Origin: Alphaproteobacteria bacterium | GTDB taxonomy: Bacteria; Pseudomonadota; Alphaproteobacteria; G963923945 | Assembly: GCA_963923945.1 (NCBI GenBank) | Contig: OZ000551.1 | Location: forward strand, 335,671 to 399,670 | Length of the DNA: 64,000 nucleotides | Reading direction: 5' to 3' | Shown here: positions 6,901 to 41,878 of the stretch, one piece after another | Position numbering within the stretch: the stretch's first letter is position 1 | How the letters are laid out: every line of letters begins with the position of its first letter | The notes under the pieces: generated by a model | Told to the model about the DNA's origin: nothing | Databases searched by the model: none | The model's input: only the letters and a program-made list of their open reading frames with translations | Made by a program: the position numbers and the translations under genes

Positions 6901-6925
6901 ACCGGCCCGATTCTTATCCTCATCC

Positions 6926-8865: not shown

Positions 8866-8936
8866 TTTTTTCCTCTTCAATTCAGTCGGCTGAAATAAAA
8901 CAATAAAAATGAATCGATAAGAACGGGTCGATAAAA

Positions 8937-9704: not shown

Positions 9705-9726
9705 TTCTGCCCAGGAGCAGACGATT

Positions 9727-11109: not shown

Positions 11110-11155
11110 AAGGAACACGGCAACCGCCGCCCTTCGCCACCTTAAGAAAACCGTT

Positions 11156-13330: not shown

Positions 13331-13397
13331 TCATGACGGCCGATGGGATGATGAATAAACCGGCCCAGCTCTCTTTTCTCAAGGAGACCGGATCAAT

Positions 13398-14105: not shown

Positions 14106-14174
14106 CCCTCTGTTTGTAAAACCGCATGTTCACAACATTGCATGTTTGTAACAGCCTGCTGATCTATTGGCTGC

Positions 14175-15953: not shown

Positions 15954-16081
15954 CCTCACCCTATCCATACCGGTGATTGGATGCGATTGTCTCTTCAACC
16001 CGATGGTTGGAATTGTTGCTCATCATCGCCTCAGCATTCCTTTGCTGTTGTTTCATGATGATTGGGCCGATCCCTATACGA

Positions 16082-17458: not shown

Positions 17459-17497
17459 CTTGATCAAACATTATGGCGCACAGGAAGCAAAGCCTGG

Positions 17498-18880: not shown

Positions 18881-18893
18881 CACCAAAACGCAA

Positions 18894-19562: not shown

Positions 19563-19785
19563 GTCAAACCCTCAAAAACAGTGATGGATGAATAGCGATT
19601 GATTGAATGGATGGGTCGAAAACACAGTCGAAAACATAGTCTATGTATTCATGCTATATATTCATGGTCAGGAGATACAGCAATGACACAAGAGATTCCC
19701 AAACCGCTCCCCAACCAATATCTTGGCTATGAAACGGCGTTGTCACTGAACCCGAGAAGGGCAAAAAAACAAGGAAAATCATGGG

Positions 19786-20349
19786 TCAATGATTAGTCTG
19801 CCGCCACTTGATTGAACATCCAATGCTGGAAATTTGTTCCCGGGGTCCTTGCCCGGTTTGTGCAATCATCAGCATCGCCTCACGTAATTCCCGTTTGGTT
19901 CCAGGAGGACAAGGTTCACGCCCAGCCGCGTCCAAGCGTCCACGATATTGGAGGCCCAAATCGGCATTGAATCCAAAAAAATCCGGCGTACATATGGCCG
20001 CATAGGCGCGAGCGACATCTTGACTTTCATCAATCAGATAGGGAAAACCAAACCGGTGATCAGCCGCAAAACGGCCCATATTCTCAAAAGAATCATCGGG
20101 GTAAGTCTCAACATCATTGGACATAATCGCCAACGCCTTGACCCCATGATCACGCAAAAAATCGACATCCTCAACAATGCGATCAATCGCCGTACGCACA
20201 TAAGGGCAATGATTACAGATGAACATCACCAAGGTTGCGCTTTCACCAACATGGTCAGCCAGCCGGTAAGTATTGCCGTCAACACCAGGCAGGGAAAAAT
20301 CAACCGCTTGCCAACCAAAATCACAAACCGGATTCATCTGTTCAGCCAT
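19786..20349 (-). CDS. thioredoxin-fold protein (redoxin/peroxiredoxin-like thiol-disulfide oxidoreductase)
   Basis: CxxC motif in a thioredoxin-fold context (LVMFICNHCPYV), 187 aa. Confidence 0.65.
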   Translation of the reverse strand: MAEQMNPVCDFGWQAVDFSLPGVDGNTYRLADHVGESATLVMFICNHCPYVRTAIDRIVEDVDFLRDHGVKALAIMSNDVETYPDDSFENMGRFAADHRFGFPYLIDESQDVARAYAAICTPDFFGFNADLGLQYRGRLDAAGREPCPPGTKRELREAMLMIAQTGQGPREQISSIGCSIKWRQTNH

Positions 20350-20778
20350 TGTTTTTCTCTTGTTTTATTAAGAAACAATCAAACAATAAAAAAATAATCA
20401 GCCCGCTACATGCCGTTTATTGGCCACAATCAGCCGCAAGACAGTTTATGGGTCGGTAGAGCCTCACATTTTCAGCTTGGATTTCTCAGCTTGGATTTCT
20501 AATTGGCGTTCCAAATGGCAAGAAATTTGCTTAAAAAATCTATGCGTAAATATGCTTAAAAAATAAACCCATTTTTATAAACTGACTTTCTTATCAATCT
20601 TTATGAACCGATCCCTTTCATGTGCCAACCCTTTTATGGCTGTTTTATTCACGTGCCAACCTTTTTATGACTGTTTTTTATCGGCTATTTTTTATTGAGT
20701 ATAGAGTATCTTGACTCCGCATACAGCTCATAGCGTCATTGGATCATACCGTCTTTAGATTTTGGCAAGAGGCAGATT

Positions 20779-21462
20779 GTGATTAACTGCGAAAAAATGC
20801 TTCAGTATCGGCATTGCGTCCCCGCCGGTTTAGATGCGCAATCGCCGGTTGATCGGCGACTCCAAACCCGAAAGGGGCGGCGGCGGATTGGAGCGGTGGG
20901 GCTTTTGGTTGCCATCGCTCCTTTATGGAATGGTGGCTGCACACCGGTACAGGCGGTTATCCCGATTGCTGATACCGCCAATTACTTGGCTGAAGAACAA
21001 TTTATAACCGATAAATGGATATCCCAATGGTATGGCAAACAGTGCTCCTTGGCCAATTTTCTTGAAGATCGTGTCATGTGCCGTGACGCCCCACCGGACA
21101 AAATTGTCGCGCCGATTTATTGTTACAGCACCTTAGGGAAACCAGAATGCTTTGAATCTCCGGACCCATTCGACCCCAGACGGCCCCTGCTGGGTGGTTT
21201 GCCCCAACAGAGGCGACAAGCCGAACGCTATCAACAATATCTCAATACCGGGACACGTTGGCCTCTAAAACCGATTGGCCAAGCCGAAACAGCGTTACCA
21301 GCCGCCAAAAGTAACCCCATCAACAACGACACCATGCAAAACAACAATCCCAGAACCAACAACCGCGTCCCTGTTTTGAAAAATGATCTTCCGGATAATA
21401 CCATCGAGTCAGATTCAGTACCCGCCAGCCAGCCCGCTAAACGACCTCAGAACGACTCATAA
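20779..21462 (+). CDS. hypothetical secreted/lipoprotein with Cys-containing core and N/P/Q-rich C-terminal tail
   Basis: Basic n-region plus hydrophobic stretch ending GGC (RRRIGAVGLLVAIAPLWNGGCTP). Four Cys in the mature part. The low-complexity C-terminus lowers coding confidence. Confidence 0.4.
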   Translation: MINCEKMLQYRHCVPAGLDAQSPVDRRLQTRKGRRRIGAVGLLVAIAPLWNGGCTPVQAVIPIADTANYLAEEQFITDKWISQWYGKQCSLANFLEDRVMCRDAPPDKIVAPIYCYSTLGKPECFESPDPFDPRRPLLGGLPQQRRQAERYQQYLNTGTRWPLKPIGQAETALPAAKSNPINNDTMQNNNPRTNNRVPVLKNDLPDNTIESDSVPASQPAKRPQNDS

Positions 21463-21711
21463 TCTCGGTCTTTCCGCCCTTTTCCACCTATTCTTGCCAT
21501 TTTTTGCTCATATATTGAGCCAGAATAATCTCATCTGTGGAGCGGGAATAATGATGAGTCATTATCATTATTGAGATCAATCCCGATTTGCTGTTTTATT
21601 CTGCCATACTCTGTTCCTTTATTATTGCGATAACAGAAGATGGATCTCATGCGATCAGATGATCTGTTGGATGGGTAACGTTGAGAAAAGCGAGAGAGAG
21701 GCGCATGAATA

Positions 21712-21909
21712 ATGACCAAAAATGATCTCCGCGGCGTTGATTTGTCGAAAATCGCCGATGAAGACTTGACTCCCGAGCAAAAAGAAGAGTTAGCCCGCCG
21801 CTTTAAACGGTTTTTTCGAGTCTTGGATCAAAGCCGTCGCGAACAAGAAAAACGCAAAAAAAACCGCCACAAAAACCCACGTAAATGGATTCCTGGCCAG
21901 GATACATAA
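21712..21909 (+). CDS. small highly basic hypothetical protein (65 aa)
   Basis: ORF only. GAGG-like sequence upstream. Lys/Arg-rich C-terminus. Confidence 0.25.
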   Translation: MTKNDLRGVDLSKIADEDLTPEQKEELARRFKRFFRVLDQSRREQEKRKKNRHKNPRKWIPGQDT

Positions 21910-22057
21910 ACGATCAAGCAAAAGCAGTCCCCAAGATGGTTAATAGGACGGCCTCGCACTGCCCCAGCGCTTTTTGAAATGTTGGGGATACCGATAAATC
22001 CGGAGAGACTGCGGCGTTCATCTTTAATAAAACATCTCTCAATATTATTCTTATTAT

Positions 22058-22420
22058 CTATTCTTCGAGTGGATGCATATAGCTGGAATAACCCCTCTGG
22101 CCTTCTTTTGACGCCAGACGCTGCCGACCCATAACCCCGTTAAAGATATAATCGCGCCACCCTGAATCCCATTCAATAACCAGGCTGCCGCCTTCTGCCT
22201 CATGCCATTGCCCTTTCCAGCCTTCGGCATAATCGGTCATCGCTGTGCCGTCGGGATAGACATCAATCCGGTAGCTTCCGCCCCAAGAATCGGCGGTCTC
22301 CCAAGACCCTTCCCAACCGGCAAAGGCCGGAAAAGACAACCAAACAGCCAGCCCAAACGTGAAAAGACAAGACAAAACAAGGCCAGGCGGAGGTAAAAAT
22401 CTCTGTGAAAAAATGGTCAT
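22058..22420 (-). CDS. hypothetical small secreted Trp/Gly-rich protein
   Basis: Internal Met start gives signal peptide (LVLSCLFTFGLAVWLSFPAFA). Repeated W-x-G-x-W motifs (GWEGSWETADSWGGSY, GWKGQWHEAEGG, EWDSGWRDY). Confidence 0.4.
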   Translation of the reverse strand: MTIFSQRFLPPPGLVLSCLFTFGLAVWLSFPAFAGWEGSWETADSWGGSYRIDVYPDGTAMTDYAEGWKGQWHEAEGGSLVIEWDSGWRDYIFNGVMGRQRLASKEGQRGYSSYMHPLEE

Positions 22421-22614
22421 CAGATTGGATTCTTTCTTACTGAAGTCATTTTGTTGATCATCAATATCATTCATTAAAATCATGGTCAGATTAAGATCAT
22501 CACGGCATTGGATAGCATCATTCAAGGGTTGTCTTATAGCATCATCAGACAGAATGATCATGGGTTCTCACACGGCGCCGACAAAACCGCCCGATCATGG
22601 GATGATCAAACCCA

Positions 22615-25041
22615 TCACACCCTCCGTAAGGTCCCCCCGGTTGCATCGGCGACCGCCGCTTCGATAGACGCTGCGACATCATCAATCATGGCATCGGTGA
22701 GTGTCCCTTTACGGGGTTGCAAACGCACTGATAGGGCGACTGATTTTTTGCCTTTCGGGACTCCTTGATCGGTATAAATATCGAAAATTTCTACCCTGTC
22801 GACCAGATTTTTGCCGCCTTTACGGGCCGCAACCACCACATCGGCGGCTGGTGTTGCCTCATCCACCAAAAAAGCAAAATCACGCATGACCGGCTGATAC
22901 GCAGACACATGAAGAGCCGGACGGGATGGTTTTTTCTTTGCTATCGGGACAGCATCAATAAAAATTTCAAACGCCGCGGGCGACCCAGCCAAATCAAATG
23001 CTTTGGCAACCAAAGGATGGACAACACCAAATTGGGCCAAAATATTTCTCGGACCCCAACACAAACATCCCGATTGTCCAGGATGAAACCAATCCGGCCC
23101 TGGGGCTTGGGTTTTTAGCGTGTCAATCGTCACCCCGAGAGCTTTGAGCACCGCCAAAACATCGGCTTTAACATCAAACGCATTGACCGGACGGGCCGGA
23201 CCCGACCAATGCCGAGTGACCGCATCGCCAACCCGCAGACCGGATACCATTTTATGTTGTTGTCCCGGTTGACCACCGGTGAAAGCCGGCCCAATTTCAA
23301 ACAAGCCAAAATCAACCTGACCCCGCGCCAAGTTACGGGAGGCAGCAGCAATCAAAGAAGCCAGAGGAGTCGGGCGCAGCTGGTCAAGATTTTGGCTGAT
23401 CGGATTGAGAAGACGCAAATCCTCACCGCCACCACCAAACAGCTGGGCATGATCACAATCCATGAAAGACCAGTTGACCGTCTCCATCAAACCCCGTACC
23501 GCCAAAGCGCGGGCAACCCGGCCCAAGCGACCATAAGCCGGATCACCGGCCGGGCCAGGCAACCGGCCATCATGATTCATCGCTACCGCCGGAATGGCAT
23601 CAAAACCATGCACCCGCAAAATCTCCTCAACCAAATCGGCCTCACCGGCGATATCACCGCGCCAACTGGGTGGCGTCACCCGCCATATTGGTTCTTGATC
23701 ACTCTGGTTGTTTGAGGAGTCCAGATCACGGCTGGCAATTTCACAACCCAATGACTCGAGAATGGATCGGCATCGGGTTGCTGGCAGATCAATCCCGCCC
23801 AGAGCGGCCACCTTACCCGGACGCCAAGCAATCTCGCGGCGCCAATCGGGGGCCGATCCGGCCCTATAAGGTTTGCTGGCTTCACCGCCGCATAAATCGA
23901 TCATCATCGCTGTTGCGGCATCCATTCCTTGGCCCACGCTGGCCGGGTCAACGCCGCGCTCAAACCGGTAGCGGGCGCTTGTTTCAAGATGCAAAAGACG
24001 CCCTGTTGTCGCCGTACGGGTGGGATCAAAGCTGGCGCATTCCAGGATGACATCAGTGGTTGTCAATTCACAGCAACTGCTCTGGCCGCCGATGACACCG
24101 CCCAAACTCAGGATACCGTTTTCATCGGCAATCACGGTCATCCCGGCGGCTAATCGATATTCATGCCCATCCAGAGCGGCCAAGGTTTCCCCATCAAGAG
24201 ACGCCCGCACAGTCAAATCACCGGCAATCTTGGCGGCATCAAAAACATGCAGCGGCCGGGCCTGATCAATGGTCAGATAATTGGTCACATCAACCAAAGC
24301 CGAAATCGGTCGCAACCCGGCCGCCAACAGCCGTTCCTGAAGCCAAGCCGGGCTGGGACCATTTTTGACCCCGCGAATGAGCCGAATCTGAAATTCAGGA
24401 CAGGCCCGCCGATCATCAAGCTCCAGCCGAACCGCAACCGGGCAAGCAAATCCGGGCCGGGCTTGAGATACGGCAAGCGGCTTCAGTTCACCAAGACCGG
24501 CTGCGGCAAGATCACGGGCAATACCACGCACACCGGTGCAATCGGGTCGATTGGGGGTCAAAGCAATCTCAATAATCGGCCCGGCCCGGCCAAGCAGAGC
24601 TTGAGCAGCCGCCATACCCGGCTTGGAATCCCCATCAAGCTCAATAATGCCGTCATGATCATCCCCCAGGGCCAGTTCACGGGCTGAACACAGCATGCCT
24701 TGGCTTTCGACACCCCGGATGACACTGGCTTTGAGAATATGGCCATCGGCTGGAATCATGCTCCCCGGGGCGGCAAAGATACTCTTTAGTCCAACCCTTA
24801 CATTGGGAGCACCACACACCACCGCGACCAGCCCGGCCCCGGCCTCAACCGAACAAATACGCAAACGATCGGCATTGGGATGCGGCTCAACCGCCTGAAT
24901 TTCCCCGACCACCAAATCTTTCAGATTCGGCTCTTCAACCTTTTCAACCTCAAGACCAAGAGCGGTGAGGGTGGCGGTGATCTCAGCCAAACTGGCACCG
25001 GTTTCCAGATGATCCTTCAGCCAATCAAGGGAAAATCTCAC
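22615..25041 (-). CDS. pheT: phenylalanine--tRNA ligase beta subunit
   Basis: 808 aa. Conserved PheT N-terminus (MRFSLDWLKDHLE) and tRNA-binding domain. Overlaps pheS by 4 bp. Confidence 0.95.
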   Translation of the reverse strand: MRFSLDWLKDHLETGASLAEITATLTALGLEVEKVEEPNLKDLVVGEIQAVEPHPNADRLRICSVEAGAGLVAVVCGAPNVRVGLKSIFAAPGSMIPADGHILKASVIRGVESQGMLCSARELALGDDHDGIIELDGDSKPGMAAAQALLGRAGPIIEIALTPNRPDCTGVRGIARDLAAAGLGELKPLAVSQARPGFACPVAVRLELDDRRACPEFQIRLIRGVKNGPSPAWLQERLLAAGLRPISALVDVTNYLTIDQARPLHVFDAAKIAGDLTVRASLDGETLAALDGHEYRLAAGMTVIADENGILSLGGVIGGQSSCCELTTTDVILECASFDPTRTATTGRLLHLETSARYRFERGVDPASVGQGMDAATAMMIDLCGGEASKPYRAGSAPDWRREIAWRPGKVAALGGIDLPATRCRSILESLGCEIASRDLDSSNNQSDQEPIWRVTPPSWRGDIAGEADLVEEILRVHGFDAIPAVAMNHDGRLPGPAGDPAYGRLGRVARALAVRGLMETVNWSFMDCDHAQLFGGGGEDLRLLNPISQNLDQLRPTPLASLIAAASRNLARGQVDFGLFEIGPAFTGGQPGQQHKMVSGLRVGDAVTRHWSGPARPVNAFDVKADVLAVLKALGVTIDTLKTQAPGPDWFHPGQSGCLCWGPRNILAQFGVVHPLVAKAFDLAGSPAAFEIFIDAVPIAKKKPSRPALHVSAYQPVMRDFAFLVDEATPAADVVVAARKGGKNLVDRVEIFDIYTDQGVPKGKKSVALSVRLQPRKGTLTDAMIDDVAASIEAAVADATGGTLRRV

Positions 25042-27049: not shown

Positions 27050-29803
27050 CTATGATGCCGATTGGCGGTCATCACCGCGGCTTTCCATGCGGAACGCCGC
27101 ATCAATCAGCCTGCGGGTATAGGGGTTTTTGGGGGCATCAAAAATATGTGCGGTTGGTCCCCGTTCAATCACCTGCCCGGCCCGCATGACCAGGATATCA
27201 TCGGCCAAAGCCCTGACCACTTTGAGATCATGGCTGATAAACAGATAGGCCAGATCATATTTTTCCTGCAATTCCCGTAACAGATCAATGATTTGGGCCT
27301 GAACCGAAACATCAAGGGCGCTGGTTGGCTCATCAAGAACCAGAAATTGCGGCTTTAAGATCAAGGCCCGGGCAATCGCCACCCGTTGGCGTTGACCACC
27401 GGAAAATTCATGGGGATAGCGGTCGCCATCAGCCGGCGATAAACCCACCTCCTCCAGAGCCTGATCAATCAGAGCCTGACCGGCTTGCGCATCCGTAGCC
27501 AGTTGATGAACCGCCAACCCTTCGCCGATGATTTCCCTGATCGAGAGGCGCGGATTGAGGGAGGCAAAAGGATCCTGGAAAACGATTTGCATTTGTCGGC
27601 GCAACGGCCGCAACGCTTTTGACCGGATCTGATCAATCGGTTGGCCATCAAAAAAGATCGAGCCACGACCCAAGCCCAGCCGCAACAACGCCAAAGCCAG
27701 CGATGTCTTGCCGCAACCACTCTCCCCGACAACCCCCAAGCTGCGGCCCGGTCGCAAAGCAAAATCCACCCCATCAACCGCTTTGACATAACCGTGAACG
27801 CGGCGCAAAAAACCGCGCTTGATCGGATGCCAGACCTTGAGATCCCGGGCTTCCAGAAGCGGTGCAGCAGAGCCAACCGGACGCGGCGGATGGGGTTGCG
27901 GTTCGCTGGCCAAAAGATGCCGGGTATAGGGATGGTTCGGTTGCACCAACACCGTTTCACGTTGACCGTTTTCGACAATCAAACCATGGCGCATGACATA
28001 GACTCGTTGGGCCATCTTGCGAACCACCGCCAAATCATGGGTGATCAGCAATAGAGCCATGCCGAGACGGCTTTGTAAGGCTTTAAGCAAATCAAGAATC
28101 TGAGCCTGAATGGTCACATCAAGGGCTGTGGTTGGCTCATCAGCAATCAGGAGATCCGGCTCATTGGCCAGAGCCATGGCAATCATCACCCGCTGACGCT
28201 GGCCACCGGAAAGCTCATGGGGATAGCTCTTCAAAAAACGCTCCCCATCACCAAGGCCCACCATATCCAGCAATTCAAGAATTCTGTGCCGCAGGGCCTC
28301 ATCGGCCAATTCACGATGCAAAATAAGGGCCTCACCGATTTGTTTTTCCACATTATGCAGAGGATTCAGCGATGTCATCGGTTCTTGAAAAATCATGCTG
28401 ATATGATTGCCACGTATCGTGTTCATCTCACCGGTCGGTGTGCCGATAATTTCTTGTCCCTCAAAACGAATGCTGCCGGAAGGGTGGCGGGCCCGGGGAT
28501 AGGGCAACAACTGCATGATAGACAAGGCAGTAACCGATTTTCCCGAACCACTCTCACCAACCAGGGCAACGGTTTCACCGCACCGGATATCAAAGGAAAC
28601 ACCCCGGACCGCTTCAACCACCGCCCCACCCGGCGGGGCAAAAACAACCCGTAAATCATCGACCGCAATCAATGGTGACCCCCCGGATATGGAGTCTTCG
28701 CCCTTGGTCTCTTTGGCATTCTTTTTATCACTATCCGATGATGTTTCGGTTTCCTTCCCGGCCAGACCGGTTCGGCGCGGATCAAAGGCATCTCGGGCCG
28801 CTTCACCGATGAAAACCAACAGACTGAGCATGAAAGCCAGAACGCAAAAAGCGGTGATGCCCAGCCAGGGAGCCTGAAGATTGGCTTTTCCTTGGGCCAG
28901 CATCTCACCAAGCGAAGGAGAGCCTGGCGGCAACCCAAACCCCAAAAAATCCAACGCGGTCAAGGTGGTGATGGAACCGCTGAGAATAAAAGGTAAGAAT
29001 GTCAATGTGGCGACCATGGCATTGGGAAGCAGATGCCGCACAATGATCACCGGGGTGGCCACCCCCAAAGCCCGGGCGGCCCGCACATATTCAAAATTAC
29101 GGGCCCGCAAAAATTCAGCCCGGACCACCCCCTCCAAGGCCATCCAGCTGAACAGCAACATGATGACCAGCAAGCTCCAAAAACCCGGCTCAATAAAGCT
29201 GGCCAAAATGATCAAAAGAAACAGGACCGGCAATCCCGCCCAAATTTCGATAAAACGCTGAAATAAAAGATCGGTCAACCCACCGAAATAGCCTTGGAGG
29301 GCTCCAGCAGCAATCCCCAGAATCGAGCTTGAAAGCGTCAACAACAAACCAAAAAGAATCGAGATACGAAACCCATAAATCAGACGCGCCAGAACATCAC
29401 GTCCCTGGTCATCGGTACCCAGCCAGTTATCGGCACTTGGTGCCGATGGTGCAGGCGTTGCGAGATCATAATTGATGGTATCATAAGAAAAAGGAATGAG
29501 CGGCCACAGCATCCATCCTCGATCTTGGATCAAATCAACCACAACAGGATCACGGTAATCGGCCTCACTCTCAAACTCACCGCCAAATATGGTCTCCGGA
29601 TAACGTTCCATAATCGGCGCATAAAAAGCCCCATCATAATAAACCAAAATCGGTTTATCATTGGCGATCAGCTCGGCAAACAAACTGACGATGAAAAGGG
29701 TTGTAAAGATGATGAAGCTGCCATAGCCGCGTTTGATGGATTTGAAATTAAGCCAACGACGGCGATTGAGAGGCGATAGATAGCGGGTTGTTGACAGGAC
29801 CAC
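27050..29803 (-). CDS. yejEF: fused peptide ABC transporter: OppC/YejE-type permease domain + tandem double ATPase (YejF/OppDF-type)
   Basis: Single 917 aa ORF. N-terminal roughly 345 aa is polytopic with the ABC permease EAA-loop region (YVRAARALGVATPVIIVRHLLPN). An acidic/Ser-rich linker (ETETSSDSDKKNAKETKGEDS) follows. Then two complete ABC ATPase cassettes (Walker A GESGSGKS twice, signatures LSGGQRQRV twice, Walker B LLIADEPTTALD and LVLDEPTSALD). Confidence 0.8.
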   Translation of the reverse strand: MVLSTTRYLSPLNRRRWLNFKSIKRGYGSFIIFTTLFIVSLFAELIANDKPILVYYDGAFYAPIMERYPETIFGGEFESEADYRDPVVVDLIQDRGWMLWPLIPFSYDTINYDLATPAPSAPSADNWLGTDDQGRDVLARLIYGFRISILFGLLLTLSSSILGIAAGALQGYFGGLTDLLFQRFIEIWAGLPVLFLLIILASFIEPGFWSLLVIMLLFSWMALEGVVRAEFLRARNFEYVRAARALGVATPVIIVRHLLPNAMVATLTFLPFILSGSITTLTALDFLGFGLPPGSPSLGEMLAQGKANLQAPWLGITAFCVLAFMLSLLVFIGEAARDAFDPRRTGLAGKETETSSDSDKKNAKETKGEDSISGGSPLIAVDDLRVVFAPPGGAVVEAVRGVSFDIRCGETVALVGESGSGKSVTALSIMQLLPYPRARHPSGSIRFEGQEIIGTPTGEMNTIRGNHISMIFQEPMTSLNPLHNVEKQIGEALILHRELADEALRHRILELLDMVGLGDGERFLKSYPHELSGGQRQRVMIAMALANEPDLLIADEPTTALDVTIQAQILDLLKALQSRLGMALLLITHDLAVVRKMAQRVYVMRHGLIVENGQRETVLVQPNHPYTRHLLASEPQPHPPRPVGSAAPLLEARDLKVWHPIKRGFLRRVHGYVKAVDGVDFALRPGRSLGVVGESGCGKTSLALALLRLGLGRGSIFFDGQPIDQIRSKALRPLRRQMQIVFQDPFASLNPRLSIREIIGEGLAVHQLATDAQAGQALIDQALEEVGLSPADGDRYPHEFSGGQRQRVAIARALILKPQFLVLDEPTSALDVSVQAQIIDLLRELQEKYDLAYLFISHDLKVVRALADDILVMRAGQVIERGPTAHIFDAPKNPYTRRLIDAAFRMESRGDDRQSAS

Positions 29804-29994
29804 GACCTCACATTACGCGTCTTTGGTCTGAAAAACTTTGGCCTAAAAGACGCATAATAATAATGGAAAATTGATAACCGGGTATAGAATAAGGAGATAC
29901 GTTAATATGTCAAAAATATGTTAAAATTTGAATGGACCTTCCTGTAGATGAACAACCCGGTAGTATGGGAACGTCTCTTAACCTTAGTGAGCAC

Positions 29995-31233
29995 TCAAGA
30001 AAAGTGAGCACTCAAGAAAACAAACTCAAAAAAACAATCCGTGATAGAGTGGTCATCGGGAACATGAAGCGATGCACGTTTCCAGGGGTCGGTATTGGGA
30101 ATGAACAAGCACAAAGCATTTTGCATGGTCATCCTCCGACAGGCGGCCGCTTGTTGAGCCAAATATCCAGTTGGGCACTGTGGCGCATTTTTGATCAGCT
30201 TCTCGGCAATTTGTTCCAATGTTTCAAAAAGTTCTTTTGTCTCTTTTGTCTCTTTGTGATCTTCATTGGCGTTGCCCCTGAGATTGTCGACCGTGTTATC
30301 GGCGTTGTTCTGCGCAGCATCATCGACATTGTTCCGGGATGATGGGGCAGTGTGGGTATTGAGACCAACAACATAGGTGTTGATATCACTCATTTGCTCC
30401 AGCAATTCGATGGCAGATGAAAAAGACGGTGCTTCGATACCAAACTCTTCCAAGAGCTTTTGTTTCAGCCGCAGGATTATTTCTTTGGTCATATGAGCAG
30501 CATCAACAACCGATTGATGAAATCCGGCCGAGGCGTGCTGGGTTGCTGAAAGAAATTTTTTCTGGGCGGGGTCCGTTGGACTGGATTCTGCTGAATTGGA
30601 TGAAATATCTGCCGATGGTTCTGATGAAATTTTCACCGATGGATCCCAAATTGCACGCGAACATTTTAATGTTGCCATTGAAAAGGGGTGTTCAGCCCAT
30701 GGTGATACAGGAGTGATTTCCCCGGCATAAGGACATAAATTGACCAATAAGAGAGGTTCGGGGAGTTTTTGTTCCAACCAAAAAAATGGTGCCAATCGCC
30801 GTTCTGGATCACCATGAACGGCGGGGTGGATATCATCCCAAAACATGGCGCAAAGATCGGCCAACAACTGCAGACCATCTTGAAGACCACGAAAACCATC
30901 GGTATGAAGGAGAGATACCGAAAACCAGATTGTGAGTAAGATATCTTTACTCTGATTCTCTAAAGCATCATGGCAAATAGATCGAACATGATTCCAGTCG
31001 GGTTTGATGAGATGTTCGCCATCAACCGCGGTCGCCGACAGTGATTTTCCCTTTACTATCTCCGTTTGAATTTGGTGATAGGCATCTTCATATCTTAAAT
31101 ATTTACCGGTCGACATTTCAGAGGAAATCGGTGCCAGAAGGGCCATCGGATCGAAAACCACATACCGAGATTCTTGGTTTAGGAATTTTTGACTGCTGTT
31201 GATCATGCGAAACTCCTGGAACCGATATGCCAT
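29995..31233 (-). CDS. tssA: type VI secretion system protein TssA-like (ImpA_N domain protein)
   Basis: N-terminal ImpA_N hallmarks (MALLAPISSEMSTGKYLRYEDAYHQIQTEI; DWNHVRSICHDALENQSKDILLTIWFSVSLLHTDGFRGLQDGLQLLADLCAMFWDDIHP). C-terminal conserved segment resembles short TssA proteins (PQCPTGYLAQQAAACRRMT). The true start is probably an internal Met (M10 or M30 of the ORF). Confidence 0.75.
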   Translation of the reverse strand: MAYRFQEFRMINSSQKFLNQESRYVVFDPMALLAPISSEMSTGKYLRYEDAYHQIQTEIVKGKSLSATAVDGEHLIKPDWNHVRSICHDALENQSKDILLTIWFSVSLLHTDGFRGLQDGLQLLADLCAMFWDDIHPAVHGDPERRLAPFFWLEQKLPEPLLLVNLCPYAGEITPVSPWAEHPFSMATLKCSRAIWDPSVKISSEPSADISSNSAESSPTDPAQKKFLSATQHASAGFHQSVVDAAHMTKEIILRLKQKLLEEFGIEAPSFSSAIELLEQMSDINTYVVGLNTHTAPSSRNNVDDAAQNNADNTVDNLRGNANEDHKETKETKELFETLEQIAEKLIKNAPQCPTGYLAQQAAACRRMTMQNALCLFIPNTDPWKRASLHVPDDHSITDCFFEFVFLSAHFS

Positions 31234-31248
31234 GTTGCGGAAATATGA

Positions 31249-32298
31249 TCATGGATGGATGACCTCCAATTGTCGTTGATGATTTTCAGCCGCAACCGCG
31301 ATAATCAATGGTCTGGTGATCCACTCTTCCCGCATGATGATGCGGAAACTCTCTTCACGGTTTTCAAAAGCGTGGATTTTGTAGTGTCCGCCGATAATTT
31401 CCTCGAGAGCTGCCCGGATATGGATGCCAACCTCTTGGAAACAGAGGTAACTCTCTTGGTGATCAAATGGTTTGAGAGTCGGGGGTGCTTCCTGGTCACG
31501 AAGATGGTCGATATGTCCAAGGATGGCACATAAATCCAGATAGATATGAAAAGGATGGGGATTGGCTTTTAATCGGGCATCAGCCACCAGTAATCCCGCA
31601 GATAGGGATTGAACAAAAAACCGGTATTCGAGTTTGCTAATTCTGTTGGTGGGCTTTGAATCGCGACGGTTTTCCACCAATCTCCATATGGCTTTCCGGA
31701 TATCCGAGAGGATAGCATCAATGTAACGCCATTGATCACTATTGGTCTCAATTTGTAGAGTCGGCGGGAAGTAATCAGTTTGCGAAAATCGCCCTTGTTG
31801 GCATCGAATACGTGCAATGATGAGTCGGTTCCCTAACGCCTCGCCTTGGTCAAGAATGGCAAGATTGATCGGTGATTTATAGACTGTAATGGGGGCGGTT
31901 TGGTCGCTGGATTCGGTGATTTGGATTTCCGTAAAATCTTGGTATGCACCATCATCGGCCGATGTCTTACCGATACAGATATTCAGCTCTTCGCCGTTGG
32001 TTTTATCGGTTGGTAACGTAATACTCATCGGCGTTTGTTGAGAATCGCTACGTATGATTTGTCAATCGGGAAGAACGGCATCAGCCACAACAAGGGTAAA
32101 GACTCCTTGCGGAATCGTATCGGCATCAATTTTGTAGGAATGGACTCCCCAGGGAAAAGGGATGGCACTGGCGGTGTGGTGGAAGGCAACATTGGCCAGC
32201 CGACTGGTGAGATGATTCATGTGCCCAGCAGAGAGCATCATCCCATCTTGCCAAAAAATTTCCTGATCAAGATTGGTTGGCTCAATCAATGTTCGCAA
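31249..32298 (-). pseudogene. tssK: type VI secretion baseplate protein TssK-like, interrupted by an in-frame TGA (at 32062-32064) and C-terminally short
   Basis: Upstream ORF (78 aa) has a TssK-like N-terminus (IFWQDGMMLSAGHMNHLTSRLA). The same reading frame continues after a TGA with a 259 aa ORF containing a TssK-like HPYxLYLxLCxL motif (NPHPFHIYLDLCAILGHIDHL). The combined length of about 349 aa is shorter than canonical TssK (about 445 aa). Confidence 0.55.
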
Positions 32299-32928
32299 GC
32301 CCTATCATCTTTTGTCTTTTGTTGTCTTTTGAACATTCATTCTTCAAGTCCATTTCACCGATATGACGGTGACGACACGAATGTTACGACGGAACCATAT
32401 TTTTTGTCGTGCCTGGCATCATAGAGAAACTTTCACAGCCAAAAATACCATATTCATGGGACAACCGGAGAGTCCCCGACATGATCAAGGGTCGCGCATG
32501 ACTGCCCGAATGTGAGGACTATGATCATTATGTTTGTCCCGGAGTCTGTCCGATTGAACGTCATGAACAGACCAGATGTGAAGCTATGGGTGCCGTTCTC
32601 TCAAGGAGAGAGTGGTGCTTGATGCATAACCGGATACAAACAAATGAGCCCGCATCATGGCTCTTAGCAGGATGAAAAATTGGGTGATTCTTTTAGGAGA
32701 AGACTCCTTTTTCCTCGGCGCTTGATCATAAATGTCAGCCGCTTGATTTTCTGGTTGCCAAATTCTTTGATTGACTGTCGGGCCATGCCTGCAGAAAGCC
32801 GCACATCTGTATTATCAAGCAGCACCGCACCGGGCCTGAAGCAAGGTCTGGACTTCGAGTCTCAGCACAACGACAAGCATCGGTGCGTATGGATGATTGG
32901 CTTTTTGAGTGTCGGCTTTTATTGGCTT

Positions 32929-32973
32929 AGCAGACCATTTCATGTCTCCCCTTTTAGGAGAGACATGAAATGG
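32929..32973 (-). terminator. perfect 16-bp inverted repeat (hairpin) immediately downstream of yejB
   Basis: accatttcatgtctcc-cctttt-aggagacatgaaatggt. No clear U-tract follows on the minus strand, so it may be a structural or regulatory hairpin rather than an intrinsic terminator. Confidence 0.35.
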
Positions 32974-32986
32974 TTAATCCCATCGC

Positions 32987-34120
32987 CTAATATTTATCTT
33001 GACTTTCGAAATCGATACGCGGGTCAACCAGGACATAAACCAAGTCATTGATCAATTTAAGAACCAAACCAAACAGAGTAAAAATATATAAGGTTCCAAA
33101 CATAACCGGGTAATCACGGCCCAAAGCCGCCTCAAAGCCCAGCAGCCCCAGACCATCGAGTGAAAAAATGACCTCAATCAATAAAGACCCGGTAAACAGA
33201 ATACTGAGAAAAGCACCCGGAAAACCCGAAATGACAATCAGCATGGCGTTGCGGAAAACATGGCCATAAAGCACCCGGTTTTCGGTCAAACCCTTGGCCC
33301 GGGCGGTCATGACGTATTGCTTGTTGATTTCTTCAAGAAAAGAATTCTTGGTCAGCATAGTCAAGCTGGCAAACCCACCCACAACCATCGCGGTCACCGG
33401 CAAACAAATATGCCAGAAATAATCAAGAATGCGGGCCGACCAACTCAGCTCTTCCCAATCGGGAGAAGTGAGGCCGCGTAAAGGAAAAATATCCAGAAAG
33501 CTGCCCCCGGCAAACAGGACAATCAATAAAATAGCAAACAAAAAACCGGGGATGGCATAGCCGATAATCACCACCGCCGAGCTCCAAAGGTCAAACCGGC
33601 TGCCGTCAAGAACCGCTTTGCGCACACCCAACGGAATTGACACACAATACACCAGGAGGGTTGTCCAAAGACCCAGCGAAATGGAAACCGGCATCTTATC
33701 AATGATCAAGTCAATCACCGCCCGGTCACGGTAAAAACTCTCGCCAAAATCGAACAACACATAATTTTTGAGCATCAGCCAAAAACGCTCAATAGCCGGT
33801 TTATCAAAACCATATTGCTTCTCAAGATCAGCAATCAAAGCTGGGTCAATGCCCCGTGACCCGCGGTATTTATCGCTCACCGCCGAACCACCCGATGATG
33901 CTTGACCGCGTAAATCGCCGCCATCAGCACCCGAAAGGCGGGCGGTGAGATCAATGTTTGTGCCCTTGAGTTCAGCCAGAACCCGCTCCACCGGACCACC
34001 GGGTGCAGCCTGAACAATCACAAAATTAACGATTAAAATCCCCAGCAGTGTCGGAATGATCAACAGCATCCGACGCAGAATATAGGCGACCATATGGTGA
34101 TACCCCCAAGCTGAAAACAA
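32987..34120 (-). CDS. yejB: peptide ABC transporter permease (YejB/OppB/DppB family)
   Basis: 377 aa. N-terminal TM ([32 protein letters not shown]) typical of OppB-type permeases. EAA loop region ([26 protein letters not shown]). Confidence 0.85.
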
Positions 34121-34127: not shown

Positions 34128-36206
34128 TCAGCGTCGGCGGCCCGCTTGAATCAAGAAAGCAACCATCGCAAAACAGACAATCATCAGCCACACAATATCC
34201 CAGGTAAATCCCGATGATTCCTCGGCGTCTAAAGACTGTTCTTCGGGTGCTGACTGGGGTCCCGTATCAACAGCCGCTTGATCAATACCCTCTAATGCGC
34301 CCGGGTTGACATCGCCATCAATCAAGGCCGCTTTAACCGGATCAAACCACCAAAAATCCAGACCCAGCGCATAATCCGGCGTGATGGCCGGTCGATCATA
34401 GAAATCCCAATAGGCGACTCGAAAACTGCGCAGATGATAATGGGGAATCACATAATATCCCCAGAGCAAAACCCGATCGAGGGCGCGGGTACGGGCAATC
34501 AAACTCTCCCGGTCCGGGGCGGCAATAATCTGATCCACCAAGGCATCAACCACCGGGTCGGAAACCCCAGCCATATTACGGCTACCGGGGCGGTTGGCGG
34601 CATCACTGCTCCACATATCCAGCTGTTCGTTACCCGGTGATAAGGATTGAGGGAACAAACCAACCGCCATATCAAAGTCGAAATTTTCCATACGTTTTTG
34701 ATATTGTGAGTCATCTTGTACAGTGCGCAAGCGGGTGATGACACCCAACCGTTCGAGATTTTTCCGAAACGGGTTGGTAATCCGTTCAAACAGGGGGGAG
34801 CGCAACAGAATCTCAAATTCCATCACCATGCCGGTTTGGCTGTTGGTCAAGACCCCATCACTTATCTCCCAGCCGGCTTGTTGCAAAAGGCGCCGGGCCA
34901 GACGCAAATTATCGCGGATTCCCTCAGCACTGTTTGGGGCCTGATAGACCGCCTCAAAAACCTCAGAAGGCACCTGATCCCGATAGGGTTCAAGAATGGC
35001 CAATTCTTCTTGCCCCGGCAGACCGCTGGCCGCCAATTCTGAATTGGAAAAATAGCTCTGGGTGCGGGTATAAGCATCGTAAAACAGGTTGCGGTTCGAC
35101 CATTCAAAATCAAAGGCCAAAGAAAGAGCCAGACGCACCCGCGGATCGCCGAAAATCGCCTTGCGGGTGTTGAAAACATAGCCTTGCATACCGGTTGAAT
35201 TGGCATGGGTAATTTCCTCAACTTTAACCAGACCCTGCTCACGGGCCGGAAAATTATAGCCGGTCGCCCACGTCTTGGAGGCATTTTCCAACCGAAAATC
35301 ATAATCTCCAGCCTTGAAGGCCTCCAAAGATACGGTTTGATCACGATAGAGATCGTAAACAATACGATCAAAATTGTAGCGGCCGGCATTGACCGCCAAG
35401 TCGCGGCCCCAATAATCCGGATCACGCGCATAGGTGATCGAACGGCCCGGATCAACAGCACTGATCCGATAAGGACCACTGCCAACCGGTGGGTCTAAAG
35501 TGGTTTCCGAAAAATCACGCTCAGACCAATAGGCTTTTGATAAAATCGGCACACCGCTGCCGATAATCAGCGGCAATTCCCGGTTATTTCCCGGTTTAAA
35601 ACGGAATGTAACCTCCCCCGGGCCGCTTTCCTCAACCGATTCCACACCGGCAAAATAAGACCGATAAAAAGGATGACCATATTTCATAATGGTCTCAAAG
35701 GAGAATATGACATCATCAACCGTAATCGGCCGACCATCATGGAAACGCGCCTGTGGATGCAATCGGAAAGAGACCCAGCTGCGGTCTTCGGGCATGCGGA
35801 CAGTTTCGGCAATCCGGCCATATTGGGCAAAGGCCTCATCACTTGAGGGGTCCATCAATGTCTCAAAGAGGTAAGATAAACCGGGTGCGGAAACCCCCTT
35901 GAGGATATAGGGGTTGAGATTATCAAAGCTGCCAATCCGGGCCAGACGCATCATTCCACCCTTGGGAGCGGCCGGGTTGGCATATTGATAATGGGTGAAA
36001 TCAGCCGGGTATTTCGGTTCCCCATGCATGGCCACACCATGACGCCATACCGGTTCTTCAGCCACAGCCCCAAAGGCCGTTGCCATCCCAAGCCCCACCA
36101 GGGTGGTCATCTGAATACCAACCCGAGTTAATTGAGAAATAATATGACCGATACCGCTCTTTTTTAGCGGTTTTATTGGTTTAACCGGTTTGATCATTTT
36201 CATCAT
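34128..36206 (-). CDS. yejA: extracellular solute-binding protein family 5 (YejA-like peptide-binding protein) with a C-terminal extension containing a TM helix
   Basis: About 600 aa SBP_bac_5-type core (WSFRLHPQARFHDGRPITVDDVIFSFE; GSGPYRIS). N-terminal signal-like segment. The last roughly 50 aa form an acidic linker plus a hydrophobic helix and RRR (FTWDIVWLMIVCFAMVAFLIQAGRRR). Confidence 0.8.
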   Translation of the reverse strand: MMKMIKPVKPIKPLKKSGIGHIISQLTRVGIQMTTLVGLGMATAFGAVAEEPVWRHGVAMHGEPKYPADFTHYQYANPAAPKGGMMRLARIGSFDNLNPYILKGVSAPGLSYLFETLMDPSSDEAFAQYGRIAETVRMPEDRSWVSFRLHPQARFHDGRPITVDDVIFSFETIMKYGHPFYRSYFAGVESVEESGPGEVTFRFKPGNNRELPLIIGSGVPILSKAYWSERDFSETTLDPPVGSGPYRISAVDPGRSITYARDPDYWGRDLAVNAGRYNFDRIVYDLYRDQTVSLEAFKAGDYDFRLENASKTWATGYNFPAREQGLVKVEEITHANSTGMQGYVFNTRKAIFGDPRVRLALSLAFDFEWSNRNLFYDAYTRTQSYFSNSELAASGLPGQEELAILEPYRDQVPSEVFEAVYQAPNSAEGIRDNLRLARRLLQQAGWEISDGVLTNSQTGMVMEFEILLRSPLFERITNPFRKNLERLGVITRLRTVQDDSQYQKRMENFDFDMAVGLFPQSLSPGNEQLDMWSSDAANRPGSRNMAGVSDPVVDALVDQIIAAPDRESLIARTRALDRVLLWGYYVIPHYHLRSFRVAYWDFYDRPAITPDYALGLDFWWFDPVKAALIDGDVNPGALEGIDQAAVDTGPQSAPEEQSLDAEESSGFTWDIVWLMIVCFAMVAFLIQAGRRR

Positions 36207-37914: not shown

Positions 37915-38022
37915 TTCTTGTCATGTTTCTTGTCATGTTTCTTGTCATGTTTCTTGTCATGTTTCTTGTCATGTTTCTTGTCATGTTTCTTGTCATGTTT
38001 CTTGTCATGTTTCTTGTCATGA
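37915..38022. repeat. 12-bp tandem repeat (tcttgtcatgtt) x about 9
   Basis: Direct reading. Perfect head-to-tail copies in the divergent intergenic region between the cytochrome c gene and kdsB. The 76-aa ORF MFLVMFLV... is just its translation. Confidence 0.9.
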
Positions 38023-38194
38023 TTGTCTATTTTTACATGTTTTTTAACGGACTTTATTTTTACGCGCCTTATGAGAGTCGACAACTTTGTTATTATGATG
38101 CTCTTTCTGAAATATCCTATAAAAAATTTAAAATGTTCTGTAAAAAATATTGAAAAATCAGATAAAAATTAACCCTAATCCGTAAAATTATATC

Positions 38195-41558: not shown

Positions 41559-41656
41559 TCGGGAGGCCGCCCACGGACGGTCATCTCGCCAACCCGGTCA
41601 GGTCCGGAAGGAAGCAGCCGTAACGAGTTTTGCCCGGGTCGTTGGTGCGGTCTCTC
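41559..41656 (+). ncRNA. ffs: signal recognition particle RNA (4.5S RNA)
   Basis: Contains the near-invariant SRP domain IV sequence GGUCAGGUCCGGAAGGAAGCAGCC. The 5' (gggaggccgcccacgg) and 3' (ggtgcggtctctc) ends can pair. A T-rich tract follows. It lies immediately upstream of dnaX as in many bacteria. Confidence 0.8.
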
Positions 41657-41878
41657 ATCTTTTATTTTTGAATATCCATTAACATTTTTGAACATCCATT
41701 AACAACGTACCCCATAAAAATGATTGGGCCATTGATACGTTATGCCCTTTTGAACGGTGATATGTTTTTAAGAATGGGAAAATCTTATCGCAATCTTATC
41801 AATGGTCTTTTATTGTTGGCTTTATTCCATTGAGACAATCAGAATGATGCGATCAGTTCTCTTTGCTTATGCCACCCC

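What the first reader, a model, noticed from the sequence alone, without database searches (positions are those of the whole stretch)
29995..32298. Orphan type VI secretion gene pair (tssK-like + tssA) inserted inside a yejABEF-type peptide ABC transporter operon
A roughly 3.2 kb segment sits between yejB and the yejE/yejF genes, and in the canonical locus those genes are contiguous.
- The segment encodes a clear ImpA_N/TssA protein and a TssK-like baseplate protein.
- No TssB/C, Hcp, VgrG, TssM, TssL, ClpV or any other T6SS component appears in the 64 kb window.
- The insert is flanked by about 600 bp of non-coding DNA and a perfect hairpin.
- It could be the remnant of a decayed T6SS island, or a two-gene module recruited next to a microcin-C-type peptide importer. 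Either would be unusual, because tssA and tssK are not normally found as an isolated pair.
- The co-directional arrangement upstream of yejEF suggests co-transcription.
Basis: partly seen in the sequence, partly recalled or inferred. Interest (0 to 1): 0.8.

Follow-up and report, generated by a model that had tools for sequence, protein, structure and literature searches.

The report
Decayed type VI secretion island remnant
The tssK/tssA pair inside the yej peptide-transporter operon is what is left of an 18-kb type VI secretion gene island that a sister genome still carries whole at the same spot, so it is ordinary gene-cluster decay and not a new two-gene module.

Summary
A 3,183-bp, lower-GC segment (29804-32986) lies between yejB and a fused yejE-yejF gene. 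It encodes a clear ImpA_N/TssA protein and TssK-like sequence, and the 64-kb window has no other T6SS gene.

The "TssK" is a pseudogene. It has an in-frame GGA->TGA nonsense codon at 32062-32064 and has lost its 3' end.

The closest relative found (ENA contig ctg11637l; YejEF 89% identical) has a complete 18.3-kb compact T6SS island at the same yejB|yejE junction. Its genes are tssK, a tssL-tssM fusion, tssA, a tssB-tssC fusion, hcp, tssE, tssF, tssG, vgrG, a LuxR/GerE regulator, a PAAR-like gene and small ORFs.

Aligning the two gives two clean deletions in the window:
- 2.1 kb: the tssK 3' end plus tssLM. The last ~18 codons of tssLM survive.
- About 12.8 kb: tssBC through the end of the island. 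This deletion also removed the native tssA stop codon.

A slightly more distant relative (OZ240684.1) has an empty site, with yejB 4-5 nt from yejE.

dN/dS and relative-rate tests show no relaxation even in the dead tssK. The decay is therefore recent, and the open tssA frame says nothing about function.

Verdict: a T6SS island remnant, a known kind of event. Interest is low.

The parts
34128..36206 (-). yejA-type periplasmic peptide-binding protein (692 aa)
   Evidence: PF00496 SBP_bac_5, E 8.9e-64. 84% aa identity to the relative's ortholog.
32987..34120 (-). yejB-type permease. It is the left border of the island site.
   Evidence: PF00528, E 5.5e-33. 95% identical to the sister genome and 91% to OZ240684.1. 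dN/dS 0.05.
32934..32974 (.). Near-perfect hairpin just after the yejB stop. It is specific to the window.
   Evidence: 19-nt arms, 95% complementary, 3-nt loop. dG -37.5 kcal/mol, z -7.6. Unique in the window. Not present after yejB in the relative. Not called a terminator because it has no T run.
32299..32986 (-). Non-coding leader of the former T6SS island
   Evidence: No ORF with a family match. Only a 71-nt patch aligns to the relative.
32400..32470 (-). 71-nt patch, 90% identical to the sister genome. It holds the box TGTCCCATGAATATGGTATT at 32444-32463 and is the likely promoter/operator of the T6SS cluster.
   Evidence: blastn, 90.1% over 71 nt. The 16-mer occurs once in the window. 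Among 85 loci it occurs only in the 3 that carry this T6SS type, always upstream of tssK; in L084 it is a perfect palindrome. A second box lies inside the relative's island, and there are T6SS-linked metagenome hits.
31249..32298 (-). tssK pseudogene: an N-terminal piece (32062-32298) and a main piece (31249-32028) in the same frame, with the 3' end missing
   Evidence: PF05936 profile positions 15-53 and 85-343 of 429. 84% nt identity to the relative's tssK over 1,057 nt with no indels. GGA (Gly) in the relative is TGA here. The relative's TssK is 432 aa and matches profile positions 15-397.
32062..32064 (-). In-frame nonsense codon (TGA) in tssK
   Evidence: The nucleotide alignment shows GAT GGA CAA in the relative and GAT TGA CAA in the window.
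31203..31259 (-). Relic of the 3' end of the deleted tssL-tssM fusion gene. Deletion junction 1 lies at 31259/31260.
   Evidence: Window 31255-30054 aligns to relative 9952-11099. By eye the homology extends to relative position 9948. Relative positions 7835-9947 (2,113 bp) are absent. tblastn matches tssLM residues 615-636 here.
29995..31206 (-). tssA (ImpA_N family, short TssA type). The reading frame is open (403 aa from ATG 31206; the ORF extends to 31233). The last 11 residues are foreign.
   Evidence: PF06812, 103.7 bits; TIGR03363, 153.1 bits against a cut-off of 160.85. 69% aa identity to P0002, which sits in a full T6SS cluster. The closest solved structure is 6hs5_A TssA, E 4.3e-14. 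The C-terminus reads ...TDCFFEFVFLSAHFS* here and ...TDRF* in the relative.
29924..30030 (-). Deletion junction 2: about 105 nt with no counterpart in the relative, including a 17-nt tandem duplication (29986-30019) that supplies the present tssA stop codon
   Evidence: Homology to the relative ends at the native tssA stop (relative ~11135) and resumes at relative ~23935-23991. About 12.8 kb carrying tssBC through orf146 is absent. Direct repeat D4.
29886..29913 (-). Sigma-70-like promoter candidate for yejEF, inside a patch conserved with the sister genome (29855-29923)
   Evidence: TTGACA-16-TATTCT, 10 of 12 matches. The patch is 75.7% identical to relative 23991-24060, which has TTGACA...TATGCT. 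It is absent from OZ240684.1, where about 5 nt separate yejB and yejE.
27050..29803 (-). Fused yejE-yejF (permease plus double ATPase, 917 aa). It is the right border of the island site.
   Evidence: NF011596, 488 bits (cut-off 439); NF011713 YejF, 704.6 bits; PF00528 plus two PF00005 domains. 89% identical to the sister genome (P0005). Such fusions are common. dN/dS 0.10.

Best explanation
The segment is the decaying stump of a horizontally acquired, compact type VI secretion island.

Inferred history:
- An island of about 18 kb inserted between yejB and yejE in the common ancestor of this genome and its sister lineage.
- Its gene order was: LuxR-box promoter, tssK, tssL-tssM fusion, tssA, tssB-tssC fusion, hcp, tssE, tssF, tssG, vgrG, then regulator, PAAR-like and accessory genes.
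- The island split the yej operon. yejEF has since been expressed from a promoter at the island's right end (inferred).

Three events in the window's lineage killed the system (shown by alignment):
- A 2.1-kb deletion fused the truncated tssK to the last ~18 codons of tssLM.
- A deletion of about 12.8 kb removed everything from the tssA stop codon to near the island's right end.
- A G->T change turned a conserved Gly codon of tssK into TGA.

tssA remains an open frame only because the decay is recent (inferred). It most likely has no function. No secretion apparatus can be built from this locus.
For: - Same site, full island in the sister. On ENA contig ctg11637l, yejA-yejB is followed by tssK, a DotU+IcmF_N fusion, tssA, a VipA+VipB fusion, hcp, tssE, tssF, tssG, vgrG, a GerE regulator, DUF4280 and small ORFs, then yejEF-rpmI-rplT-pheST. 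The island is 18.3 kb.
- Deletions mapped. Window 32316-31260 matches relative 6778-7834 (84%). Window 31255-30054 matches relative 9952-11099 (74.5%). Nothing in the window matches relative ~11135-23935.
- A relic of the tssLM 3' end is present.
- Nonsense mutation GGA->TGA.
- The TssK HMM match stops at 343/429 in the window and reaches 397/429 in the relative.
- Empty site in OZ240684.1, with a 4-5 nt yejB-yejE gap. The two genes are adjacent (gap of about 200 nt or less) in all but one of the roughly 65 other species where yejE lies downstream of yejB in the fetched locus.
- The window and the island-bearing relative are sisters relative to OZ240684.1 in 5 of 5 proteins.
- Foreign composition: the island GC is 0.455-0.458 against flanks of about 0.50-0.53, and GC3 is 0.44-0.47 against 0.53-0.56.
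- The same gene order occurs at an unrelated locus in GCA_021772895.1 and on a Logan contig, so tssK-tssLM-tssA-tssBC is the native arrangement.
- The decay is recent. The tssK fragment has dN/dS 0.196 and tssA 0.214. Tajima relative-rate tests show no acceleration in the window lineage for either gene.
- No other T6SS gene is in the 64 kb.
- T6SS clusters reduced by large deletions, with tssA, hcp or tssBC left behind, are documented in E. coli ST410 and Enterobacter (PMC10711316, PMC10763514).
Against: - tssA is still an uninterrupted 403-codon frame with a good Shine-Dalgarno sequence, and its pairwise dN/dS (0.21) looks like purifying selection. Retention by selection is therefore not excluded.
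- The upstream promoter/operator patch is 90% conserved.
- Only 64 kb of a genome of about 2.1 Mb could be read. A second T6SS elsewhere that might use this tssA cannot be excluded. The sheath search listed only the best 120 of 3,515 hits.
- The order of events rests on three genomes only. A clean loss of the island in OZ240684.1 is equally compatible with the data.
- Raw reads were not available to rule out a base-call error at the TGA codon.
Confidence: 0.88

Rival explanations
1. Orphan tssA is kept by selection. After the island collapsed, TssA stayed useful, either by serving a second T6SS encoded elsewhere in the genome or by doing something unrelated to secretion. It would be expressed from the surviving LuxR-box promoter through the dead tssK.
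For: - Open 403-codon frame with AGGAG 7 nt upstream of the ATG.
- No excess of window-specific substitutions: 15 against 16.
- dN/dS 0.21.
- The upstream patch with the box is 90% conserved.
- In E. coli ST410-B a tssA2/hcp pair also persists after a 21-kb deletion.
Against: - The demonstrably dead tssK fragment gives the same statistics (dN/dS 0.196; 10 against 9 unique changes). These numbers reflect the time before inactivation, not present selection.
- The native stop codon is lost and 11 foreign residues are added to the C-terminal end. In established TssA biology that end mediates ring formation.
- The cluster's GerE/LuxR regulator gene is deleted.
- No sheath homolog on a 2,099,932-bp contig appears among the best 120 hits.
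- Only 3 TssA homologs exist among 5.8 billion clusters, so there is no orphan-TssA family.
Confidence: 0.08
2. A two-gene tssK-tssA module was recruited on purpose into the yej peptide-import operon and is co-transcribed with yejEF.
For: Same strand as yejAB and yejEF. No strong terminator was predicted between tssA and yejEF.
Against: - tssK carries a nonsense codon and lacks its C-terminal part.
- A stub of tssLM lies between the two genes.
- The sister genome has 15 genes at this site, some on the opposite strand, so the pair is a deletion product.
- No T6SS gene lies next to yejB in 80 other species.
- A conserved promoter-like site precedes yejEF.
Confidence: 0.02
3. Assembly or sequencing artefact: the island is complete in the real genome and the window sequence is a collapsed or mis-joined assembly.
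For: The genome is apparently a metagenome-derived single contig of about 2.1 Mb. Reads were not available.
Against: - Both junctions are embedded in continuous sequence with conserved flanks.
- The two deletions are independent.
- The junction regions show no repeats that would promote collapse.
- The nonsense change is a substitution, not a homopolymer error.
Confidence: 0.02

Closest known systems
Deletion-degraded T6SS loci in Enterobacteriaceae: E. coli ST410-B/H24, and the Enterobacter bugandensis T6SS-i2 remnants
   Same: A complete tss cluster in related strains is reduced elsewhere by one or two large deletions of about 20 kb without mobile elements at the junction. A few tss genes (tssA2 plus tssD2, or tssBC) and gene stubs remain at the same chromosomal site (PMC10711316; PMC10763514).
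   Different: Here the comparison is between genomes that differ by about 16-17% in nucleotide sequence at this locus, not between clones. The host is an uncultured alphaproteobacterium with a genome of about 2.1 Mb. The island sits inside an ABC-transporter operon. The survivors are a tssK fragment plus tssA.
Short-form TssA (TIGR03363 type, e.g. P. aeruginosa TssA1; B. cenocepacia TssA N-terminal structure 6HS5)
   Same: An ImpA_N domain at the N-terminus. The TIGR03363 match covers profile positions 5-342 of 353. There is sequence similarity to 6hs5_A (E 4.3e-14). TssA1 is described as a ring bound to the sheath and baseplate (PMC4969574, listed; abstract only).
   Different: The score is just below the equivalog cut-off (153.1 against 160.85). 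The C-terminus is altered by the deletion. There are no partner proteins at the locus. Ring formation was not tested.
Compact T6SS clusters with fused tssL-tssM(N-terminal part only) and fused tssB-tssC (sister contig ctg11637l; GCA_021772895.1; Logan SRR29093012)
   Same: The window's tssK and tssA are orthologs of genes 1 and 3 of this cluster type: 82% and 66-69% aa identity to the sister, and 39% and 32% to GCA_021772895.1. The same upstream box is shared.
   Different: The window has lost 11 or more of the cluster's genes, including all sheath, tube, spike, baseplate-wedge and membrane components.
YejABEF (microcin C-type peptide ABC importer)
   Same: Order yejA-yejB-yejE-yejF. Matches to NF011596 (above cut-off) and NF011713.
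   Different: - yejE and yejF are fused, which is common elsewhere.
- The operon is interrupted by the island remnant.
- The YejF equivalog score is below its cut-off (704.6 against 834).
- The substrate is unknown.

Membership tests
TssA (ImpA_N family, PF06812 / TIGR03363) | N-terminal ImpA_N domain above the Pfam gathering score | tested here: met
   103.7 bits against a cut-off of 26.9, residues 33-154, profile positions 1-118 of 119.
TssA (ImpA_N family, PF06812 / TIGR03363) | Full-length equivalog score (TIGR03363) at or above the curated cut-off | tested here: not met
   153.1 bits against a cut-off of 160.85, although the match covers profile positions 5-342 of 353. This is a narrow miss for a divergent lineage. 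The ortholog P0002 lies in a complete cluster.
TssA (ImpA_N family, PF06812 / TIGR03363) | Encoded within, or used by, a T6SS gene cluster | tested here: not met
   The window has no sheath, tube, spike, baseplate-wedge or membrane-complex genes. The rest of the genome could not be read.
TssA (ImpA_N family, PF06812 / TIGR03363) | Oligomeric ring formed through the C-terminal domain | not testable with these tools
   The C-terminal 11 residues are replaced or extended relative to the ortholog. No structure or assembly test was run.
TssK baseplate subunit (PF05936 / TIGR03353) | Sequence match to the family model | tested here: inconclusive
   PF05936 gives 60.5 bits (cut-off 23.4) for the 259-aa piece and 22.8 bits for the 78-aa piece. 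TIGR03353 gives 65.1 and 42.8 bits, both below the cut-off of 100. Homology is clear, but equivalog status fails because the gene is fragmentary.
TssK baseplate subunit (PF05936 / TIGR03353) | One uninterrupted full-length reading frame including the C-terminal domain | tested here: not met
   There is an in-frame TGA at 32062-32064. The match ends at profile position 343 of 429, whereas the relative's 432-aa protein reaches 397.
Functional type VI secretion system | The core set TssA-TssM (sheath, Hcp, VgrG, TssEFGK baseplate, TssLM membrane part) is present | tested here: not met
   At this locus only tssA and a broken tssK are present. The sister genome has tssK, LM, A, BC, hcp, E, F, G and vgrG at the same site. 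The whole genome was not testable.
YejABEF-type peptide ABC importer | Family-5 binding protein, two permeases and a double-ATPase subunit in one locus | tested here: met
   PF00496, PF00528 twice and PF00005 twice; NF011596 at 488 bits (cut-off 439). All parts are under purifying selection, with dN/dS 0.05-0.15.
YejABEF-type peptide ABC importer | Contiguous yejB-yejE (single operon) | tested here: not met
   A 3,183-bp remnant lies between them. In OZ240684.1 the gap is 4-5 nt.

The most novel reading that the evidence does not exclude
The open tssA frame, still preceded by the conserved LuxR-type box, is retained by selection as a stand-alone protein. It would either work in trans for another contractile system in this small genome or have a role unrelated to secretion. 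That would make it a rare case of a T6SS assembly factor outliving its machine.
Probability: 0.07. Interest if true: 0.5.

Novelty: new member of a known kind. Interest (0 to 1): 0.18.

Why it matters
It matters little on its own. This is a clear worked example of how a secretion-system island is acquired and then dismantled in a small-genome alphaproteobacterial lineage. Three evolutionary states are available for the same site: empty, full and stump.

Its practical value is for annotation:
- The locus should be called a tssK pseudogene plus a probably non-functional tssA. It should not be counted as a T6SS or as a new module.
- The yej transporter should be treated as a split but still selected operon.

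The more interesting leads are in the relatives: a compact T6SS type with fused TssL-TssM(N) and fused TssB-TssC, and a conserved palindromic box at its promoters.

Tried and rejected
- Exact-sequence look-ups of the window's own TssA (both starts) and YejEF found no contig on record. The source genome and the rest of its 2.1 Mb could not be read, and cluster look-up gave no name.
- The sheath (TssBC) homolog search was meant to reveal a second T6SS in the same genome. Among the best 120 hits it found no protein on a contig of 2,099,932 bp (or of 2,069,867 bp). The list is cut off at about E 1e-192 out of 3,515 hits, so the result is inconclusive.
- dN/dS and Tajima relative-rate tests were meant to separate 'tssA under selection' from 'tssA decaying'. 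They cannot discriminate, because the certainly dead tssK fragment gives the same values.
- The hairpin is not a repeated element (one copy in the window) and was not called an intrinsic terminator. It is absent from the relative, so it is not an island end or attachment site.
- No direct repeats flank the insert, and no integrase or transposase was seen at the island in the window or the relative.
- A selenocysteine or read-through reading of the TGA was rejected. The relative has GGA (Gly) there, the gene is also 3'-truncated, and its partners are gone.
- The metagenome scan for the box gave mostly chance hits: 32 of 35 had no T6SS gene nearby.
- Rfam and tRNA scans found nothing at the locus. 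There is no tRNA in the window, and the only RNA hit is SRP RNA at 41562-41658.
- The literature search for the compact fused T6SS type found no description.
Full report
**1. What is in the sequence**

All genes of the region lie on the minus strand, in this order:
- yejA (36206-34128)
- yejB (34120-32987)
- 688 nt without a credible gene
- a 78-aa ORF (32298-32062)
- a 259-aa ORF (32028-31249)
- a 412-aa ORF (31233-29995)
- a 191-nt gap
- a single 917-aa ORF (29803-27050)
- rplT, rpmI, pheS and pheT

Family matches:
- The 412-aa ORF is an ImpA_N protein (PF06812, 103.7 bits, E 8.9e-30). It matches the short-form TssA model TIGR03363 over almost its whole length, at 153.1 bits against a cut-off of 160.85.
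- The 259-aa and 78-aa ORFs both match TssK. PF05936 covers profile positions 85-343 and 15-53 of 429. TIGR03353 gives E 6.3e-18 and 3.7e-11.
- The 917-aa ORF is a YejE permease fused to the double-ATPase YejF.

Such fusions are common among its database homologs.

The inserted 3,183 bp have GC 0.458, against 0.50-0.53 in the yej genes. Third-position GC is 0.44-0.47 against 0.53-0.56.

No other T6SS gene is in the 64 kb. tblastn with 29 proteins of two related T6SS clusters hit only this locus. Pfam scans of 40 other ORFs returned unrelated, mostly housekeeping functions. The observation therefore stands, with corrections that follow.

**2. TssK is a pseudogene**

The two TssK pieces are in the same reading frame and are separated by a TGA at 32064-32062. 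In the nucleotide alignment with the closest relative, that codon is GGA (Gly). The alignment runs 1,057 nt at 84% identity with no indels. The match to the family model stops at position 343 of 429. The relative's intact 432-aa TssK reaches position 397.

**3. The relatives explain the locus**

A search of 5.8 billion protein clusters found only three TssA homologs:
- the window's own protein, on a contig of 2,099,932 bp
- P0002, at 66-69% identity
- a distant one

P0002 lies on ENA contig ctg11637l. There, yejA-yejB is followed by:
- tssK
- a DotU+IcmF_N (TssL-TssM N-terminal part) fusion of 636 aa
- tssA
- a TssB-TssC fusion of 778 aa
- hcp, tssE, tssF, tssG and vgrG
- a 107-aa ORF
- a GerE/LuxR regulator
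- a DUF4280 (PAAR-like) gene and three small ORFs
- then yejEF, rpmI, rplT and pheST

. Stitching the two fetched pieces gives an island of 18.3 kb exactly between yejB and yejEF.

The nearest genome in the species-representative collection is OZ240684.1, a 2.07-Mb alphaproteobacterial MAG chromosome. It has nothing at the site: the yejB stop and the yejE start are about 5 nt apart.

In five proteins the window is closer to the island-bearing contig than either is to OZ240684.1. For example, YejEF identities are 89.3% against 83.9% and 84.8%.

In roughly 65 other species where yejE lies downstream of yejB in the fetched locus, the gap is about 200 nt or less, with one exception of 621 nt. None of the 80 yejB loci carries a T6SS gene.

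**4. Mapping the decay**

| Window | Relative | Identity / note |
|---|---|---|
| 32316-31260 | 6778-7834 | 84% |
| 31259-30031 | 9948-11134 | 74.5% over the blastn block 31255-30054 = 9952-11099; the block ends were extended by eye |
| 29923-29855 | 23991-24060 | 75.7%; just upstream of yejEF |

*Deletion 1.* It removed relative positions 7835-9947 (2,113 bp). That is the last ~260 nt of tssK and nearly all of tssLM. The final ~18 codons of tssLM, including the ATGA overlap with the tssA start, are still present at 31259-31203. tblastn detects them.

*Deletion 2.* It removed about 12.8 kb, from the tssA stop codon to near the right end of the island.
- The native stop was lost. The frame runs 11 codons further, giving ...TDCFFEFVFLSAHFS against ...TDRF in the relative.
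- It ends in a 17-nt tandem duplication at 29986-30019.

A stub of the gene that once lay between tssK and tssA excludes the idea that the pair is an ancestral or purpose-built module.

**5. How recent, and is tssA alive?**

Pairwise dN/dS between the window and the sister:

| Gene | dN/dS |
|---|---|
| tssK fragment | 0.196 |
| tssA | 0.214 |
| yejB | 0.05 |
| yejEF | 0.10 |
| yejA | 0.15 |

Relative-rate tests with two outgroup clusters show equal numbers of lineage-specific changes. For TssA the counts are 15 against 16, and for TssK 10 against 9.

The certainly dead tssK shows no relaxation. The inactivating events must therefore be recent compared with the divergence (dS about 0.5-0.9). 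An intact tssA frame is what one expects by chance after so short a time. These tests cannot show present selection on tssA. I judge it a relic (about 0.9), and keep a small probability for retention.

**6. Consequences for the yej operon**

The island has split yejAB from yejEF since before the two lineages diverged, yet all parts remain under purifying selection.

A sigma-70-like site (TTGACA-16-TATTCT, 29913-29886) lies in the only patch upstream of yejEF that is conserved with the sister. No such site exists in the empty-site genome. I infer that yejEF is transcribed from this promoter and does not depend on read-through from tssA. This was not tested.

**7. The upstream leader**

Of the 688 non-coding nt, only 32470-32400 is conserved with the sister (90%). 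This patch contains TGTCCCATGAATATGGTATT.
- The 16-mer occurs once in the window. Among 85 loci held, it occurs only in the three that carry this T6SS type, always upstream of tssK.
- In GCA_021772895.1 it is the perfect palindrome TGTCCCAT-GAAT-ATGGGACA.
- A second copy lies in the divergent promoter region of the PAAR-like operon inside the sister's island.
- Three of 35 metagenome hits lie next to gerE, tssK or the PAAR-like operon of such clusters. The other 32 look like chance.

This is most simply the operator of the cluster's GerE/LuxR regulator, a gene that the window has lost.

But it has one G-T pair and no T-tract, is unique in the window, and is absent from the sister. Its role is unknown, and it is not an island boundary.

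**8. Comparison with what is known**

Loss of T6SS clusters through large deletions, leaving a few tss genes and stubs at the original site, is documented:
- E. coli ST410-B: a 21-kb deletion, with tssA2 and tssD2 retained next to rhsG and tssM remnants (PMC10711316).
- Enterobacter: tssBC remnants and a deleted i2 cluster (PMC10763514).

The window is a new instance of this known process in an uncultured alphaproteobacterium. TssA itself is of the short TIGR03363 type, and its closest solved relative by sequence is 6hs5_A. Membership of the TssK family as a functional gene fails, because of the nonsense codon and the truncation. Membership of a functional T6SS fails at this locus.

**9. Verdict**

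Novelty is low (a new member of a known kind) and interest is about 0.18.

Limits:
- Only 64 kb of the genome could be read.
- Reads were not available.
- The evolutionary polarity rests on three genomes.

Noticed in passing
window 32444-32463 (minus strand); L001 6573-6592; L084 5564-5583; L085 514-533; L083 ~7892-7911; L112 4800; L097 299; L114 1797: A conserved palindromic box, TGTCCCAT-N4-ATGGGACA, sits upstream of tssK, of the PAAR-like operon and of gerE in this compact T6SS family. It is probably the operator of the cluster-encoded GerE/LuxR regulator. In the window the box survives but the regulator gene is gone.
   Followed up: partly
L001 8094-10004 and 11153-13489; L084 7007-8914 and 10001-12331; L085 1911-3788 and 4828-7158: The relatives' T6SS is an unusually compact type. 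TssL is fused to only the N-terminal part of TssM (625-636 aa, with no periplasmic IcmF domains detected). TssB is fused to TssC (~776 aa). No ClpV or TssJ gene is in the cluster. Fused TssBC proteins are numerous in the database. A literature search found no description of this type.
   Followed up: partly
window 27050-29803: yejE and yejF are fused into one 917-aa permease-ATPase protein. Well over 100 database homologs of about 900 aa have the same architecture, so this is a widespread variant and not an error.
   Followed up: yes
L006, L015, L016, L018, L021, L025, L028, L033, L036, L038, L043, L054, L060 (downstream of the yejB match): In about 13 of 80 other species, no yejE is found within the (up to) 10 kb fetched downstream of a close yejB homolog. 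The yejB|yejE junction is therefore a recurrent break point of the operon in other lineages too. What follows yejB there was not examined.
   Followed up: no
window 32934-32974: A strong, unique 19-bp-stem hairpin (dG -37.5 kcal/mol) lies directly after the yejB stop codon. It has no T-tract and is absent from the sister genome. Its function is unknown.
   Followed up: partly
L083 ~9900-9990 (relative, upstream of yejEF): A tandem array of about 15-nt units (ATTATCATTACTGCC-like, about 5 copies) lies just upstream of yejEF in the sister genome. It is absent from the window.
   Followed up: no
window 37923-38153: A plus-strand ORF begins with MFLV repeated about eight times (MFLVMFLVMFLV...). 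This indicates a 12-nt tandem repeat in the intergenic region between the cytochrome c gene and the cytidylyltransferase gene.
   Followed up: no
window 41562-41658: Bacterial small SRP RNA (Rfam RF00169, 69.8 bits), just upstream of dnaX. There is no tRNA gene in the whole 64 kb.
   Followed up: yes
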